Source of the DNA: a virus
Taxonomy: Duplodnaviria > Caudoviricetes
IMG/VR virus record: IMGVR_UViG_3300021962_005968
Location: 491 to 64,490 of that record
Reading direction: 5' to 3' (one strand)
Length of the DNA: 64,000 nt
Part shown: in pieces, positions 46,685 to 64,000 of the stretch
Position numbering within the stretch: the first letter of the stretch is position 1
Layout of the letters: each line of letters starts with the position of its first letter
Notes under the pieces: generated by a model
The model's input: only the letters and a program-made list of their open reading frames with translations
Database searches by the model: none
What the model was told of the DNA's origin: nothing
Made by a program: the position numbers and the translations under genes

Positions 46685-46692
46685 TATAAATA
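46685..46692 (+). promoter_or_regulatory. T4-type late promoter for tRNA-Met and downstream genes
   Basis: TATAAATA ending 10 nt before the tRNA. Confidence 0.75.
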
Positions 46693-46701
46693 AATTATTG
46701 C

Positions 46702-46775
46702 CGCGGATTGGTGAAATGGTATCACAAAGGACTCATAATCCTTAGTTCCTAGTTCAACTCTGGGGTCCGCATCCA
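46702..46775 (+). tRNA. tRNA-Met (CAT), initiator-like acceptor stem
   Basis: Cloverleaf with anticodon arm AAGGA-CTCATAA-TCCTT, C1:A72 mismatch and encoded CCA. Confidence 0.88.
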
Positions 46776-46777
46776 TT

Positions 46778-47080
46778 ATGAAAAAACTTATATTATCACT
46801 GCTATTAGCTGTATCTACAATTGCTTGTAGTAAAGAAACAAACAAACCTGTTATCTGTTTAGATGCAAAGGAAATGTTTGACGCAATTTTTGAGGAATAT
46901 CGCGAGACAATACTTATGGTATTTGATCAAGATTCATTCTCCACAAAAATTGTTTTAACAGTTAATCCTGCAACAAAGACATGGTCAATAGTCGAATATA
47001 ATACTGAGATAGCTTGTTTGCTAGGTTCAGGAAACAATTATAAGATAATGGGTCGTGTACCAAGTAAAGATTACTTATGA
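46778..47080 (+). CDS. Putative lipoprotein/secreted protein
   Basis: MKKLILSLLLAVSTIAC signal peptide with a lipobox-like Cys. Confidence 0.6.
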   Translation: MKKLILSLLLAVSTIACSKETNKPVICLDAKEMFDAIFEEYRETILMVFDQDSFSTKIVLTVNPATKTWSIVEYNTEIACLLGSGNNYKIMGRVPSKDYL

Positions 47081-61558: not shown

Positions 61559-61942
61559 ATGATAAAGAACTTTTCAATCGGTGCAGAAGTCGAGATTCAA
61601 ACTCGATGGAAGTCGAATATATTAGGTGAAGAATATCAGTATAATATATTCAAGGGCAAAGTCGTTAATAATCCTAAATGGTTAGATAATGATTATGTCT
61701 CTGTATATACAGGTAATCCAGAATATCCTACATCTCATATTAATAAGCGATTTATCGTTGGATTTGATTTTCCGGATAATCGAGTAGAAACTCGGATATT
61801 CAAAGTTAAATCTAAATCGAAAGGGCATATCTATAATGTCGTTTCGGATAATGGTATTGTTTCCTGCAGTTGTGTAGGATTTCAATTCCGCAGGACTTGC
61901 AAGCATGCAAATAAAGTTAAAGAATTTATCCAAAATGCTTGA
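61559..61942 (+). CDS. SWIM zinc-finger protein
   Basis: YNV...CSCVGFQFRRTCKH (CxC-x-CxH). Confidence 0.75.
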   Translation: MIKNFSIGAEVEIQTRWKSNILGEEYQYNIFKGKVVNNPKWLDNDYVSVYTGNPEYPTSHINKRFIVGFDFPDNRVETRIFKVKSKSKGHIYNVVSDNGIVSCSCVGFQFRRTCKHANKVKEFIQNA

Positions 61943-61967
61943 CAAGGTAGTCGAAAGGCTATATAAT
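61939..61967 (+). promoter_or_regulatory. Sigma70-like early promoter
   Basis: (GC)TTGACA-17 nt-TATAAT. Confidence 0.8.
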
Positions 61968-62015
61968 ATGAATTGTGAAGTTGTTAATTTTTACATTTTT
62001 TGAAGGATCTTTATT

Positions 62016-62429
62016 ATGAGTACATTCACAGTAGTCGGCGTTTCCACACAGTATGGCGTCACAAAAGTTCGTTTTGCTAATGACTTGGCATCACGCGTTA
62101 AACTCTTGTCTAAGGGTGGTCACTCACCTCTTGAGTTAATTGAGTTGCCTAAGGCAATGACCAAAGCAGAAGCATGCCAACATCTTCTTGATGTAGGCGG
62201 TATCTTCAAACAATGGGCACCTCTCATTACTGAGACAATGGGAAAGAAACAAGGTACAGTTATTAGCAAGCCAGTCAAGGTAAAAGCTAAAGCAGCACCA
62301 GTAAAGACAAAGGCAGTTGCTCCTAAGAAAGTAGCAGCACCTAAAGTAGTCAAGGCAAAGGTTGTTGATGATGACCTCGAACTTGAAGAATTGAAGCAAT
62401 TGGCTGAGTTGGAAGACGCGCCAATGTAA
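62016..62429 (+). CDS. Hypothetical protein with K/A/P-rich basic region and acidic tail
   Basis: KVRFAND...IELPKAMTKAEA, then KAKAAPVKTKAVAPKKVAAPK. Confidence 0.7.
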   Translation: MSTFTVVGVSTQYGVTKVRFANDLASRVKLLSKGGHSPLELIELPKAMTKAEACQHLLDVGGIFKQWAPLITETMGKKQGTVISKPVKVKAKAAPVKTKAVAPKKVAAPKVVKAKVVDDDLELEELKQLAELEDAPM

Positions 62430-62464
62430 TTTTAACAAAGCACCACTAGTTTGGTGCCGAGATG

Positions 62465-62472
62465 TATAAATA
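62465..62472 (+). promoter_or_regulatory. T4-type late promoter upstream of the tRNA array leader
   Basis: TATAAATA. The predicted +1 (about 62478) coincides with the ATG. Confidence 0.75.
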
Positions 62473-62477
62473 TTTTT

Positions 62478-62585
62478 ATGGGAAATAATTTTAACCTTTT
62501 CTGTCAGCATCAAGAACCGACTTCTTATATTAGAATGTCAGAGCGCTTTGCAGACAAAAATTCATGGAGTGTGCTCCAGGGTTAA
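62478..62585 (+). CDS. Putative leaderless leader peptide (35 aa, all 20 amino acids)
   Basis: MGNNFNLFCQHQEPTSYIRMSERFADKNSWSVLQG*. The 3' end is complementary to the terminator left arm. Confidence 0.55.
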   Translation: MGNNFNLFCQHQEPTSYIRMSERFADKNSWSVLQG

Positions 62586-62614
62586 AATTTAAATTTTTCA
62601 TACAAGTTTATCTT

Positions 62615-62654
62615 AGAACCCTCGGCACTCCAACAGTCCGAGGGTTTTCCTTTT
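62615..62654 (+). terminator. Terminator hairpin (candidate attenuator)
   Basis: AGAACCCTCGG...CCGAGGGTTTT followed by CCTTTT. Confidence 0.75.
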
Positions 62655-62679
62655 GTGGCATGCTTTAATACCCCTTTGC

Positions 62680-62708
62680 TTGACAAGGGTATTAAAAGAT
62701 GTTATAAT
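62680..62708 (+). promoter_or_regulatory. Sigma70-like promoter for the tRNA array
   Basis: (GC)TTGACA-17 nt-(TGT)TATAAT. The -35 is flanked by the inverted repeat TTTAATACCC/GGGTATTAAA. Confidence 0.8.
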
Positions 62709-62766
62709 ATAGTTTAAATAGATCGTTATTTAAGCTAAGTTCTTTAATAAATTAGCATACCATTGT

Positions 62767-62840
62767 ATCCGGTTAGCTCAATAGTAGAGCACTCGACTGA
62801 TAATCGAAAGACAGAGGAGCGTTACCTCTACTGGATACCA
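62767..62840 (+). tRNA. tRNA-Ile (GAT), atypical T-loop
   Basis: Acceptor ATCCGGT/ACTGGAT, anticodon loop CTGATAA, T-loop AGCGTTA and CCA. Confidence 0.8.
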
Positions 62841-62843
62841 ATT

Positions 62844-62919
62844 GTCCCGTTCGTCTAGAGGCCTAGGACATTACCCTTTCACGGTAAGTACACCAGTTCG
62901 AATCTGGTACGGGACGCCA
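62844..62919 (+). tRNA. tRNA-Glu (TTC)
   Basis: Canonical cloverleaf with loop CTTTCAC, TTCGAAT and CCA. Confidence 0.95.
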
Positions 62920-63038
62920 TTAATTTGTGATCTGCAGGCTCAGAGGCACAGATCATGCGTTATGTAAGCATAACAATAAACAGTAATCGATCGTAAAGCT
63001 GTTGAGTTAGCTAGATAGTGCAGATCACAAATTAATGG
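62917..63038 (+). ncRNA. Inter-tRNA element closed by a 20-bp perfect inverted repeat
   Basis: CCATTAATTTGTGATCTGCA ... TGCAGATCACAAATTAATGG. Confidence 0.6.
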
Positions 63039-63042
63039 TTAC

Positions 63043-63120
63043 GCCTGGGTGGCAGAGTGGTCAAATGCAACGGATTGCAAATCCGTAAGATCGTCAGTTC
63101 GAATCTGACCCCAGGTTCCA
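63043..63120 (+). tRNA. tRNA-Cys (GCA)
   Basis: Anticodon arm ACGGA-TTGCAAA-TCCGT, TTCGAAT, U73 and CCA. Confidence 0.93.
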
Positions 63121-63130
63121 AAAATAATGC

Positions 63131-63159
63131 TTGACACAAGTGTGTTAAGGTGTTATAAT
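63131..63159 (+). promoter_or_regulatory. Sigma70-like promoter within the tRNA array
   Basis: (GC)TTGACA-17 nt-(TGT)TATAAT. Confidence 0.8.
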
Positions 63160-63171
63160 AAGACATATTAA

Positions 63172-63372
63172 AAGAATCCCGTTACTATTTTCGTTAAAAT
63201 AGCGTTTGATTAGCGATAGAGATCCGGTGGCAGAAAACCGTTAGCGTGAGGATTAAAAATACCCTCGCAGGCTCTGATAGGCAGAATCTCACTGCACACA
63301 GACTTTGAATAAATGAGATGGACAGAGTAACCGCTCAATTAAGGGCTCGCCTGGAAACGAGTAGCTTATCTA
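63172..63372 (+). ncRNA. Putative ~200 nt structured RNA
   Basis: Has its own promoter. Hairpins CTATTTT/AAAATAG, CGGT/ACCG, ATCTCA/TGAGAT and CTCG/CGAG. No tRNA fold. Confidence 0.5.
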
Positions 63373-63378
63373 TATTTT

Positions 63379-63454
63379 GGTCTGTTAGTGTTAGCGGTAA
63401 GCACGCGAGCCTGTCACGCTTGTAGGAGGGATTCGAATTCCCTACAGACCGCCA
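63379..63454 (+). tRNA. tRNA-Asp (GTC)
   Basis: Acceptor GGTCTGT/ACAGACC, loop CTGTCAC, TTCGAAT and G73-CCA. Confidence 0.93.
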
Positions 63455-63530
63455 AGTTATGGTCTTAGTCTATAAATGCATAAAGAAAGTCTAAGTTAAA
63501 TGGCAACCCAAAGTGGGACCAACCATTTTA

Positions 63531-63756
63531 GAACCCGCCGGAGTAACGTCTGGCTACTGTGACCCGCAGAAAGTGAAGTAAGTTCGTAACTTACGGGTGG
63601 TAGTCTTTAAACCTAAAGGCCGTTGGCAGCACGAGAGCGGTCCTTGTCGAGAAGCGGGTGGAAGGTGTGTGCTACAAGGCGTTGAACCAAACGGGGAGCC
63701 AAAGTAACAACGGTGCAAGCCAACATACTAAATTACCGCCGGAGGATGCAGAGCAT
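63531..63756 (+). ncRNA. Putative ~225 nt structured RNA
   Basis: GC-rich, with stems GCCGGA/TCTGGC, GTAAGT/ACTTAC, CGTTG/CAACG and GGTGTGT/ACATACT. Confidence 0.5.
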
Positions 63757-63758
63757 TT

Positions 63759-63835
63759 GCCTAGGTGACGGAATTGGTATACGTGTTGGTCTTAGAAGCC
63801 AAATTTTGAGAGTTCGAGTCTCTCCTTAGGCACCA
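63759..63835 (+). tRNA. tRNA-Leu (TAG) with short variable loop
   Basis: Anticodon arm TTGGT-CTTAGAA-GCCAA, TTCGAGT and A73-CCA. 77 nt. Confidence 0.9.
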
Positions 63836-63929
63836 TATTGAAACATTCTAAACTGGACGCAGGTTCTGAGAAGTAAGACCTTGGATTGATCCTCAAGAAG
63901 GTATGGAGAACAAGAGTGTTTCAATATGG
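63833..63929 (+). ncRNA. Inter-tRNA element closed by a 17-bp inverted repeat
   Basis: CCATATTGAAACATTCT ... AGAGTGTTTCAATATGG (one G-U pair). Confidence 0.55.
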
Positions 63930-64000
63930 GGGTGTAGCTCAGTTGGGAGAGCGGTTGCTTTGCAAGCAATAGGTCGCAGGTTCGATCCCTGTCTCCTCCA
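63928..64000 (+). tRNA. tRNA-Ala (TGC), CCA would lie beyond the window edge
   Basis: GGGGGTG..TAGCTCAG, loop TTTGCAA, G3:U70 pair and TTCGATC. Confidence 0.93.

What the first reader, a model, noticed from the sequence alone, without database searches (positions are those of the whole stretch)
62465..62654. Candidate 'all-20-amino-acid' leader-peptide attenuator gating the phage tRNA array
Seen: the late promoter TATAAATA (62465-62472) would place +1 at about 62478, the A of an ATG, implying a leaderless mRNA. The ORF 62478-62585 encodes MGNNFNLFCQHQEPTSYIRMSERFADKNSWSVLQG, which contains every one of the 20 amino acids in only 35 residues. Uniform random sampling needs about 72 residues on average to collect all 20. 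The last codons (GGAGTG-tgctcc-AGGGTT, 62566-62583) are complementary to AACCCT-cgg-CACTCC (62617-62631), the left arm and loop of the terminator hairpin at 62615-62648, so the two folds are mutually exclusive. The tRNA array follows. Established: trp/his-type attenuators couple ribosome stalling on a leader peptide to antiterminator formation, and phage tRNAs can offset host anticodon nucleases. Inference: a ribosome reaching the stop masks the antiterminator, causing termination. A stall caused by shortage or cleavage of almost any tRNA frees it and allows late read-through into the tRNA genes. This would be a general translation-stress sensor rather than a single-amino-acid sensor. Caveats: Trp and Val codons lie on the antiterminator itself, and a separate sigma70-like promoter at 62680 can transcribe the array independently.
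Basis: partly seen in the sequence, partly recalled or inferred. Interest (0 to 1): 0.92.

Follow-up and report, generated by a model that had tools for sequence, protein, structure and literature searches.

The report
All-amino-acid leader gating phage tRNAs
Just ahead of its tRNA genes, this uncultured T4-like phage carries a tiny late-expressed gene that evolution keeps stocked with nearly all 20 amino acids. The gene ends inside an RNA switch that can stop transcription or let it pass, so it probably lets the phage make more tRNA when ribosomes decode slowly.

Summary
There is a TATAAATA box, an ATG 5 nt later and a 35-codon ORF with all 20 amino acids. The ORF's last 18 nt can pair with the 5' arm and loop of a strong terminator (-22.2 against -19.6 kcal/mol).

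In the window alone, the all-20 property is not beyond chance (1 of 176 comparable peptides). It becomes compelling in relatives. I found the same unit in 36 DNA variants from uncultured T4-like phages: late promoter, 29-42-codon ORF, antiterminator, terminator, sigma70 promoter(s), tRNA array.
- Of 32 distinct peptides, 23 hold all 20 amino acids, 8 hold 19 and 1 holds 18.
- Column shuffling predicts 1.4 of 32 complete. Neutral drift at matched divergence predicts 4% against 73% observed.
- Val, Asp, His and Lys occupy 8-11 different alignment columns, so presence is conserved, not position.
- The antiterminator strand keeps its place at the stop codon in all three codon phases and co-varies with the terminator.
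- Long relatives carry 21-28 tRNAs for 18-20 amino acids.

My best reading (0.6) is a ribosome-read attenuator that senses general decoding capacity. It has not been tested at the bench. The closest precedent in print is the whiB7 uORF attenuator. This scan has noted the same family on other DNA at least 11 times.

The parts
62465..62472 (+). T4-type late promoter box TATAAATA
   Evidence: Read. A TATA[AT]ATA box stands at the same place in 32 of 32 family variants and in the 4 variants of the L040 lineage. The motif is not enriched in the window as a whole: 12 found against 10.2 expected.
62478..62585 (+). Leader ORF of 35 codons plus stop, containing all 20 amino acids. It starts 5 nt after the promoter box and is probably leaderless here.
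   Evidence: The ORF is kept open, with length changes in whole codons, in 36 DNA variants.
62519..62539 (+). Mid-ORF hairpin P1
   Evidence: It appears in the minimum-energy folds. A hairpin stands at the homologous place in 31 of 31 variants, built from different stem sequences. It is weak in the window itself: -5.3 kcal/mol, with 17.5% of shuffles as good.
62566..62583 (+). Region 2, the upstream strand of the antiterminator. It covers the last six codons and the first base of the stop codon.
   Evidence: It is the exact complement of 62617-62622 and 62626-62631.
62615..62654 (+). Intrinsic terminator: 11-bp interrupted stem (arms 62615-62625 and 62638-62648) and a T-run to 62654. Its 5' arm and the first loop bases form region 3.
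   Evidence: -19.6 kcal/mol. RNAalifold keeps 9 pairs in 31 sequences, one of them changed on both sides in 15 sequences.
62680..62708 (+). Sigma70-type promoter of the tRNA array (TTGACA-17-TATAAT with TG)
   Evidence: One or two such promoters lie 45-74 nt after the terminator in 30 of 32 variants. The other 2 are cut short by contig ends.
62767..64000 (+). Start of the tRNA array. It comprises an Ile(GAU)-like tRNA, then Glu, Cys, Asp, Leu and Ala, with inter-tRNA RNAs. It runs off the window.
   Evidence: Relatives have 21-28 tRNAs for 18-20 amino acids.

Best explanation
This is a ribosome-read transcription attenuator at the head of the phage's tRNA array.

Proposed mechanism (inferred):
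- Late in infection, RNA polymerase starts at the TATAAATA box and transcribes a leader of about 170 nt.
- A ribosome translates the 35-codon ORF, which contains each of the 20 amino acids at least once.
- If the ribosome reaches the last codons or the stop in time, it covers region 2. The terminator then folds and the transcript ends before the tRNA genes.
- If the ribosome is slowed anywhere before roughly the last four codons, region 2 pairs with the 5' arm and loop of the terminator. Slowing could come from lack of any charged tRNA, from tRNA cleavage, or from a general fall in elongation or initiation. Transcription then runs on through the sigma70 promoter into the tRNA genes.
- The element would give negative feedback from decoding capacity to late tRNA supply.

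Shown here: the anatomy, its conservation, selection for a complete amino-acid set, and co-variation of the two alternative helices.

Inferred: use of the late promoter, translation of the ORF, and the regulatory outcome.
For: Anatomy
- The anatomy in the window is confirmed.
- The same unit occurs in 32 DNA variants found through the neighbouring gene and a terminator pattern. It also occurs in 4 variants of a lineage with a different terminator loop, found through the neighbouring gene only.
- A tRNA starts 144-310 nt after the terminator in 29 of 32 variants, and the other 3 are cut short. The upstream neighbour varies instead, with gaps of 36 nt to about 1.6 kb.

Selection for a complete amino-acid set
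- Of 32 distinct peptides, 23 have all 20 amino acids, 8 have 19 and 1 has 18. Column shuffling gives a mean of 1.38 complete, with a maximum of 6 in 3,000 shuffles.
- One representative per cluster gives 9.5 of 13 complete, against 0.64 after shuffling (first version).
- Neutral drift from a complete member at matched divergence gives 4.3% complete, against 72.7% observed.
- In 11 cluster representatives, Val sits in 11 different alignment columns, Lys in 9, Asp in 8 and His in 8.
- Own C-termini complete own N-termini better than swapped ones do (last 9 codons P=0.0003, last 7 P=0.015). This is not so for the last 3-4 codons (P=0.29 and 0.08). That fits a blind zone under the terminating ribosome.

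The ORF is kept open but the peptide is weakly constrained
- The three codon positions are about equally conserved (0.70, 0.70, 0.66).
- Within clusters, 50 of 77 variable codon columns change the amino acid.
- The AlphaFold model has mean pLDDT 57 and no secondary structure.

RNA switch
- The region 2 to region 3 duplex scores -12.8 to -20.1 kcal/mol outside three clusters (the L014, L089 and L040 groups). It is comparable to each terminator and ends at the stop codon.
- 18 of 31 variants beat at least 95% of shuffles.
- The ungapped helix is 6-11 bp and begins in codon phase 0, 1 or 2.
- Terminators with three C's face GGG in region 2, and those with two C's face GG.
- The helix extension into the loop uses three unrelated sequence pairs, in the window cluster, in L103 and in L040.
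- A ribosome-mask partition model gives a step in 8 of 13 representatives. Region 3 is sequestered with P 0.6-1.0 until the last 4-7 codons, then P falls to 0.2-0.4.

Target genes
- 5 of 8 long relatives carry tRNAs for all 20 amino acids. The other three carry 19, 19 and 18 by ARAGORN.

Precedent
- In the whiB7 uORF attenuator, removing the single Trp codon weakens the response to Trp starvation (PMC10274678; abstract and passages read).

Weak hint
- An exact 237-nt contig from an RNA library spans 62522-62758, across the terminator.
Against: - There is no experiment. The RNA-library contig may come from DNA, and contigs cannot show transcript ends.
- One or two consensus sigma70 promoters lie between the terminator and the first tRNA, and more lie inside the array. 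The array is therefore expressed without the leader, and the size of any late contribution is unknown.
- The L014-L027 cluster (6 variants) has only a 4-5 bp region 2 helix. Its duplex energies are no better than shuffles (20-72% of shuffles as good), and its mask profile is flat. Yet it keeps the ORF with 19-20 amino acids.
- The L089 cluster is also weak (21-33% of shuffles as good).
- 9 of 32 peptides lack one or two amino acids.
- In some members an amino acid occurs only in the last four codons. This includes the window's only Val, and also Asp in L005, Val in L047 and Gly in L056. The model cannot sense those.
- Each amino acid occurs about once, whereas classical attenuators use runs of codons.
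- The block around the conserved Ala-Arg codons and the Trp codon is conserved at all three codon positions. Some function beyond polling is therefore present.
- TATAAATA is not enriched in the window.
- Relatives such as L020 and L045 have tRNA arrays without the element.
- The window's own P1 hairpin is weak.
Confidence: 0.6

Rival explanations
1. The ORF is an ordinary small late gene. The peptide would be the functional product, for example a virion-associated or regulatory micro-protein. The hairpin would simply end its transcript and insulate the tRNA promoters from upstream late transcription. The full amino-acid set would be a by-product of some other constraint.
For: - The unit has its own promoter and terminator.
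- A motif around Cys, Tyr-Gly, Pro, Phe-Ala-Arg and Trp is conserved.
- Third codon positions change somewhat more often within clusters (55, against 37 and 32 for positions 1 and 2).
- The array has its own promoters.
Against: - Completeness is kept by relocating residues, not by conserving positions.
- Codon positions are equally conserved across clusters, and 50 of 77 variable codon columns change the residue.
- The 3' end is conserved as nucleotides in three codon phases and co-varies with the terminator.
- No fold is predicted.
- No Pfam or PHROG family matches.
- The element is always linked to the tRNA array, while its upstream neighbours change.
Confidence: 0.15
2. The element senses translation, but the output is not termination control of the tRNA genes. 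For example, ribosome position on the leader could set the stability or processing of the roughly 170-nt late RNA. The RNA could also act as a dual-function small RNA, or the switch could tune occlusion of the downstream sigma70 promoter.
For: - The mid-ORF hairpin P1 and the block conserved at all codon positions are not explained by simple polling.
- One cluster keeps the ORF and P1 without a convincing antiterminator.
- The whole leader folds better than shuffles do (z -4.28).
Against: - Region 2 competes for exactly the terminator's 5' arm in most lineages, with co-variation.
- The only genes downstream on this strand are tRNAs, and they cover 18-20 amino acids. This matches what the ORF samples.
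Confidence: 0.15
3. The element is a non-coding structured RNA or terminator region, and the open frame is never translated.
For: - RNA-level conservation is strong.
- The window and the L005 cluster have no Shine-Dalgarno sequence.
- Gene callers rarely predict the ORF. A profile search of 1.84 billion proteins found only 6 proteins.
Against: - The frame stays open in all 36 variants, although most positions differ between clusters. Lengths of 29-42 codons differ by whole codons, with the motifs staying in frame.
- Most clusters have an AAGGA/AGGAG-type Shine-Dalgarno sequence 5-9 nt before the start.
- The amino-acid completeness signal has no meaning for an untranslated RNA.
Confidence: 0.05

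Closest known systems
whiB7 (wblC) uORF attenuator of mycobacteria and other Actinobacteria (PMC10274678: abstract and passages read)
   Same: - A short upstream ORF is followed by a Rho-independent terminator with an alternative antiterminator.
- Efficient translation gives termination, and impaired translation gives read-through.
- The uORF is compositionally diverse. The M. smegmatis uORF has every amino acid except Cys.
- It senses starvation for many amino acids, and a single Trp codon matters.
   Different: - The whiB7 uORF is variable, enriched in Ala, and lacks several amino acids in M. tuberculosis. Here Ala is 5.8% of residues, the ORF is only 29-42 codons, and completeness itself appears to be selected.
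- The regulated gene there is a transcription factor. Here it is a tRNA array.
- The setting there is a cellular chromosome. Here it is a T4-like phage with a late promoter.
- No sequence relationship was found.
Classical leader-peptide attenuators of amino-acid operons (trp, his, leu, thr, ilvGMEDA, pheA). Named from established knowledge; no paper on them was read here.
   Same: - The leader is about 170 nt and holds a short ORF.
- A terminator and an antiterminator share one strand.
- A ribosome at the stop codon masks the antiterminator strand.
- The stop-to-terminator spacing is similar.
   Different: - Those sense one to three amino acids through tandem codons and control biosynthetic enzymes. 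Here there are no codon runs: every amino acid occurs about once, and the target is tRNA genes.
- In most lineages there is no clear region 1. Without a ribosome, the model favours the read-through fold.
- No Rfam leader family matched.
Anabaena trn operon of 26 tRNA genes, induced by translational stress (PMC8421152: term search only; PMC10272220: abstract read)
   Same: A large tRNA gene array is switched on when translation is impaired.
   Different: According to the abstract, control there is by a protein repressor, TrcR. The words 'attenuat', 'leader peptide' and 'terminator' do not occur in PMC8421152. That system is cellular, not phage.
Phage tRNAs as a counter to tRNA-targeting defences (PMC10264068, PMC11464382, PMC11555353: search listings and abstract starts only; PMC10264068 was also term-searched)
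   Same: They give a reason why a phage would want its own tRNA supply to respond to loss of host tRNAs.
   Different: Those papers concern the tRNAs themselves. 'Attenuat', 'leader' and 'terminator' have 0 occurrences in PMC10264068, and 'attenuat', 'leader', 'terminator' and 'promoter' have 0 occurrences in the opinion article PMC11025619.

Membership tests
Leader-peptide (ribosome-mediated) transcription attenuator | A short ORF with translation signals lies in the leader, between the promoter and the terminator. | tested here: met
   The ORF is 29-42 codons and is kept open in 36 variants, with whole-codon length changes. Most clusters have a Shine-Dalgarno sequence. The window and L005 clusters have their ATG at the predicted +1. 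Translation itself is not shown.
Leader-peptide (ribosome-mediated) transcription attenuator | An intrinsic terminator (GC-rich hairpin plus U-run) lies between the ORF and the regulated genes. | tested here: met
   In the window the terminator scores -19.6 kcal/mol and is followed by a T-run. Across the family it scores -12.8 to -18.8 kcal/mol. Nine pairs are conserved.
Leader-peptide (ribosome-mediated) transcription attenuator | An antiterminator helix excludes the terminator, and its upstream strand is covered by a ribosome at the end of the ORF. | tested here: met
   In the window it scores -22.2 kcal/mol, and region 2 spans -17 to +1 around the stop codon. It is conserved with co-variation in most clusters and weak in the L014 and L089 clusters.
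Leader-peptide (ribosome-mediated) transcription attenuator | Regulatory codons are runs or an excess of codons for the sensed amino acid(s). | tested here: not met
   There are no runs. Instead, nearly every amino acid occurs once or twice, with 7-12 singletons per peptide. This is the feature that makes it a variant.
Leader-peptide (ribosome-mediated) transcription attenuator | Read-through rises when the ribosome stalls in the ORF. | not testable with these tools
   Only a thermodynamic mask model was run. RNA-library contigs cannot show transcript ends.
whiB7/wblC uORF attenuator | It lies upstream of a whiB7-family gene in Actinobacteria, and the uORF is enriched in Ala. | tested here: not met
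   The downstream genes are tRNAs in a T4-like phage. Ala is 5.8% of family residues. The element works like this family but is not a member.
Rfam leader or attenuator families, or any other Rfam family | A covariance-model match. | tested here: not met
   A cmscan of 61900-64000 at E<=1 gave only tRNAs and one sub-threshold CRISPR-repeat hit elsewhere.
T4-type late promoter | A TATAAATA box lies about 6 nt before the start site, in a phage with T4-type late transcription. | tested here: inconclusive
   The box is present and conserved in all variants. The window encodes T4-like core proteins: major head protein, DNA polymerase, UvsX-like recombinase, a DnaB-like helicase and an SbcC-like nuclease subunit. 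The late sigma factor was not looked for, and promoter activity was not tested.

The most novel reading that the evidence does not exclude
The leader is a universal decoding gauge. In about 33 codons it polls every amino acid, and often both codon families of Ser, Arg, Leu and Ile. It converts the ribosome's transit time into a yes-or-no decision on late transcription of a complete, self-sufficient phage tRNA set. The phage could thereby detect and repair loss of any host tRNA, whether from decay of the host pool or from tRNA-cleaving defence nucleases.
Probability: 0.5. Interest if true: 0.9.

Novelty: new variant of a known kind. Interest (0 to 1): 0.85.

Why it matters
Attenuation by leader peptides is a textbook mechanism, but it is known for amino-acid operons and for whiB7. 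My searches did not find it described for tRNA genes, or with a leader selected to contain the whole amino-acid alphabet.

If the reading is right, three things follow:
- It explains how phages with complete tRNA sets regulate them late in infection.
- It links phage tRNA arrays to sensing of tRNA depletion, including depletion caused by defence systems.
- It offers a compact natural sensor of overall translation capacity that can be tested directly with reporters.

The family-wide statistical signal is unusual in itself. Selection here acts on the presence of each residue, not on its position.

Tried and rejected
Searches that found nothing useful
- DNA search of 62000-62850 against 50,697 phage records: no match.
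- tblastn of a family peptide against the same records at E<=1: no match.
- The nearest isolates by major capsid protein are only 60-66% identical: Methylophilales phage Melnitz, Synechococcus phage S-SKS1 and Pelagibacter phage HTVC008M.
- Rfam: no family other than tRNA.
- Pfam and PHROGs: nothing for the peptide.
- Profile search of 1.84 billion proteins: 6 hits, all members of this family. One new variant has all 20 amino acids and one has 19.
- Three-block pattern scan of viral contigs: 27 hits, 26 of them family members and 1 false positive, L282.
- Search with 12 tRNAs of a relative: only generic tRNA similarity.

Checks with weak or no result
- In Aeromonas phage 65, I looked only at the annotation upstream of its 15-tRNA region. 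No small leader ORF is annotated there. This was not a systematic check.
- Coverage of isoacceptor classes (two codon families each for Ser, Arg, Leu and Ile) is only modestly above synonymous resampling: 6.82 against 6.03 of 8. I do not lean on it.
- I looked for a link between an amino acid missing from the peptide and a tRNA missing from the array. L005 lacks Phe and its array (L086) shows no tRNA-Phe. However, L133 and L283 also lack a called tRNA-Phe while their peptides contain Phe, and L103 lacks Val in the peptide but has tRNA-Val. The idea is rejected as inconsistent.
- I did not test whether leader codons match phage anticodons, because the phage set can read all codons and the host is unknown.
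- MAFFT misaligns region 2 by a column between clusters. I therefore analysed region 2 per sequence instead of by column counts.
- RNA-library contigs cover parts of the leader. They cannot show transcript starts, ends or strand, and parts without cover mean nothing.
- Supplementary files of papers were not available. The uORF tables of PMC10274678 might refine the comparison.
Full report
1. The observation

Every coordinate in the finding checks out:
- TATAAATA at 62465-62472.
- ATG at 62478, five bases after the box.
- A 35-codon ORF ending with TAA at 62583-62585.
- The two six-base segments at 62566-62571 and 62578-62583 are exact complements of 62626-62631 and 62617-62622. These belong to the loop and the 5' arm of a hairpin (arms 62615-62625 and 62638-62648), which is followed by a T-run.

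The peptide has all 20 amino acids. Folded alone, the antiterminator state (62555-62634) scores -22.2 kcal/mol (z -4.96). The terminator (62610-62660) scores -19.6 kcal/mol (z -3.80).

The minimum-energy fold of the whole leader keeps the terminator. It also pairs the first 20 nt with the stop-codon region and spacer. A perfect sigma70-type promoter lies at 62680-62708 and tRNAs follow from 62767. The simple terminator scan did not flag this hairpin.

The window comes from a 64.5-kb fragment of an uncultured virus. It encodes T4-like core proteins.

2. Is all-20 more than chance?

In the window alone it is not. The chance for one 35-residue peptide is 0.0016 with the window's own composition, and 21 of 16,107 windows of its real proteins are complete. 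But the window offers 176 ATG-to-stop peptides of 29-42 residues, and exactly one is complete. The question had to be put to relatives.

3. Relatives

- The 137-residue protein encoded just upstream has 99 relatives in viral contigs, of which 80 loci were kept. Of those 80, 45 carry the same terminator motif within 3 kb.
- A pattern scan for the terminator added more loci.
- Together these give 32 distinct DNA variants, of which 31 are distinct over the promoter-to-terminator stretch.

All 32 variants have:
- a TATA[AT]ATA box;
- an ORF of 29-42 codons;
- a stop codon 21-29 nt before the terminator stem.

Where the contig allows, they also have:
- one or two consensus sigma70 promoters (30 of 32);
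- a tRNA within 144-310 nt (29 of 32).

Four further variants (L033, L040, L073, L076) have a different terminator loop and a differently ordered array. They turned up only through the neighbouring gene and show the same unit. They are a replicate that neither the terminator motif nor the ORF selected.

The upstream neighbour is not constant. The gap to the 137-residue gene ranges from 36 nt to about 1.6 kb. So the element travels with the tRNA array. Some relatives (L020, L045) have arrays without it.

4. The amino-acid set is under selection

Start codons were assigned by a fixed rule, and the longer alternative starts change no count.

- Of 32 distinct peptides, 23 have all 20 amino acids, 8 have 19 and 1 has 18.
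- Shuffling residues within alignment columns keeps conservation and composition. It gives on average 1.38 complete peptides, with a maximum of 6 in 3,000 shuffles.
- With one random representative for each of 13 clusters at 70% identity, 9.5 are complete against 0.64 after shuffling (21 of 28 and 0 of 5,000 in the first version).
- To allow for inheritance from a complete ancestor, I mutated complete members to the observed divergence using column-specific residues. This leaves 4.3% complete, against 72.7% observed.

The reason is visible in the alignment. In 11 cluster representatives, Val occupies 11 different columns, Lys 9, Asp 8 and His 8. Presence is conserved, not position.

Within clusters, 50 of 77 variable codon columns change the residue. 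Across clusters the three codon positions are equally conserved (0.70, 0.70, 0.66). AlphaFold gives no structure (pLDDT 57). This is not how a folded micro-protein evolves.

5. The RNA switch

For each variant I computed the best duplex between the ORF's 3' part and the terminator's 5' arm plus the first loop bases.

- Outside three clusters (the L014, L089 and L040 groups) the duplex scores -12.8 to -20.1 kcal/mol, similar to the terminator itself. It ends at the stop codon.
- 18 of 31 variants beat at least 95% of shuffles. 4 fall at 6-13% of shuffles as good. 9 variants (the L014 and L089 clusters) fall at 20-72%.
- The ungapped core helix is 6-11 bp in 22 of 28 representatives. It starts in codon phase 0, 1 or 2, so it is conserved as nucleotides and not as amino acids.

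Co-variation:
- Terminators with a three-C arm face a GGG core, and those with a two-C arm face GG. The matching change in the 3' arm shows as 16 C-G and 15 A-U at one pair in RNAalifold.
- The helix extends into the terminator loop through three unrelated sequence pairs: in the window cluster, in L103 and L147, and in the L040 lineage.

A second conserved feature is a hairpin in mid-ORF (P1). It is present in 31 of 31 variants with many different stems, and 18 of 31 beat 95% of shuffles. It is weak in the window. Its role is open. It could be a pause hairpin, or it could sequester a second G-rich strand.

6. What a ribosome would do

I masked 25 nt around each A-site codon and computed how far region 3 is already paired before region 4 exists.

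- In 8 of 13 representatives, including the window, region 3 is sequestered (P 0.6-1.0) for every ribosome position up to the last 4-7 codons. P then drops to 0.2-0.4 at the final codons and the stop.
- In four representatives (L028, L032, L047, L075), sequestration is high only with the ribosome on the first 8-12 codons. This suggests a competing region 1.
- L021 shows no switch.
- In most lineages the unoccupied leader favours read-through.

The statistics agree with a short blind zone. Swapping C-terminal segments between lineages destroys completeness for the last 7-9 codons (P=0.015 and 0.0003) but not for the last 3-4 (P=0.29 and 0.08). Exceptions exist. The window's only Val is at codon -4.

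7. The target

Arrays that fit inside fetched loci have 21-28 tRNAs. Five of eight cover all 20 amino acids. Three lack a called tRNA-Phe, and one of those also lacks tRNA-Ile, which ARAGORN also missed in the window. The leader samples what the array supplies.

8. Expression

Only contigs of metatranscriptome runs were available. One exact 237-nt contig spans 62522-62758, that is, the ORF's 3' half, the terminator and the promoter. Another spans 62259-62501. DNA carry-over cannot be excluded, so this is a weak hint at most.

9. Comparison with what is known

The architecture and logic are those of ribosome-mediated attenuation.

The nearest case in print is the whiB7 uORF attenuator. There, efficient uORF translation gives termination and translation stress gives read-through. 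The M. smegmatis uORF has every amino acid but Cys, and removing its single Trp codon blunts the response to Trp starvation (PMC10274678; abstract and passages read). That paper removes my main mechanistic worry, that one codon per amino acid is too few.

The differences are the size of the ORF, the evident selection for completeness, the absence of Ala enrichment, the phage late promoter and the regulated genes. The Anabaena trn operon shows that a tRNA array can be stress-induced, but it uses a protein repressor (PMC10272220, abstract).

Searches for a leader-peptide attenuator on tRNA genes or an all-20 leader found nothing. These were, and term searches inside PMC10264068, PMC11025619 and PMC8421152. 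The library lacks most subscription journals.

10. Earlier notes of this scan

After forming my reading (stated), I found at least 11 earlier notes on the same family in other genomes. I also found a wider set of notes on codon-matched leaders before tRNA blocks in giant phages. They are unchecked AI notes and I do not count them as evidence. Two of them gave me the whiB7 and Anabaena papers, which I read. One earlier follow-up seems to doubt the all-20 property, although its text was cut off. My tests on 32 peptides speak for the property.

11. Verdict

The leaderless start is clade-specific. There is a short blind zone. One or two clusters have a weak switch. The array has independent promoters.
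- Function is inferred, not shown.
- I put 0.6 on the attenuator reading.
- It is a new variant of a known kind, of high interest.

Noticed in passing
window 46685-46830: A TATAAATA box (46685-46692) lies 9 nt before a tRNA-Met gene (46702-46775). An ORF with a lipoprotein-like signal sequence follows at once, starting at 46779. This looks like a late promoter driving a tRNA directly.
   Followed up: partly
window 63206-63353 and 63576-63723: The non-tRNA stretches between tRNA-Cys and tRNA-Asp and between tRNA-Asp and tRNA-Leu are very deep in metatranscriptome contigs. Word depth reaches about 320-330 in X19 and 83 in X17. The first stretch lies behind a second perfect sigma70 promoter at 63131-63159. 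They are probably abundant stable RNAs. No Rfam family matches.
   Followed up: partly
window 62767-62837: The first tRNA of the array is Ile(GAU)-like by its anticodon loop and has an unusual T-loop. Rfam finds it (54.7 bits) but ARAGORN misses it. ARAGORN does call the homologue in most relatives.
   Followed up: partly
L133 7987-8065, L086 6720-6798, and L283: Three relatives have no called tRNA-Phe. In two of them, a 79-nt gene called 'Tyr(gta)' sits just after tRNA-His, where tRNA-Phe(gaa) sits in other arrays. It is either a miscall or an altered tRNA.
   Followed up: no
L074/L083, L089/L129/L150 and L103/L147 leaders: In these three clusters, an in-frame ATG lies 5-6 nt after the late box, six codons before the start that has a Shine-Dalgarno sequence. 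The window's leaderless start may be the same ATG after loss of that 18-nt segment.
   Followed up: partly
window 62440-62457: A hairpin lies between the upstream gene and the late box. Its loop varies among close relatives. The motif CGAGATG is conserved just before TATAAATA in several clusters. It has no T-run and its function is unknown.
   Followed up: no
L020 3387-3626 and L045 3381-3465: These relatives have the same upstream gene but their tRNA arrays lack the leader unit. In L020 an extra ORF replaces the leader, the promoter and tRNA-Ile. They are natural 'deletion' comparators.
   Followed up: partly
tRNA arrays of relatives, e.g. L151 2614-2705 and L103 12342-12433: ARAGORN calls genes of 90-92 nt as tRNA-Ile with anticodon 'tat' recurrently in these arrays. 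They may contain an intron or have an unusually long variable region.
   Followed up: no
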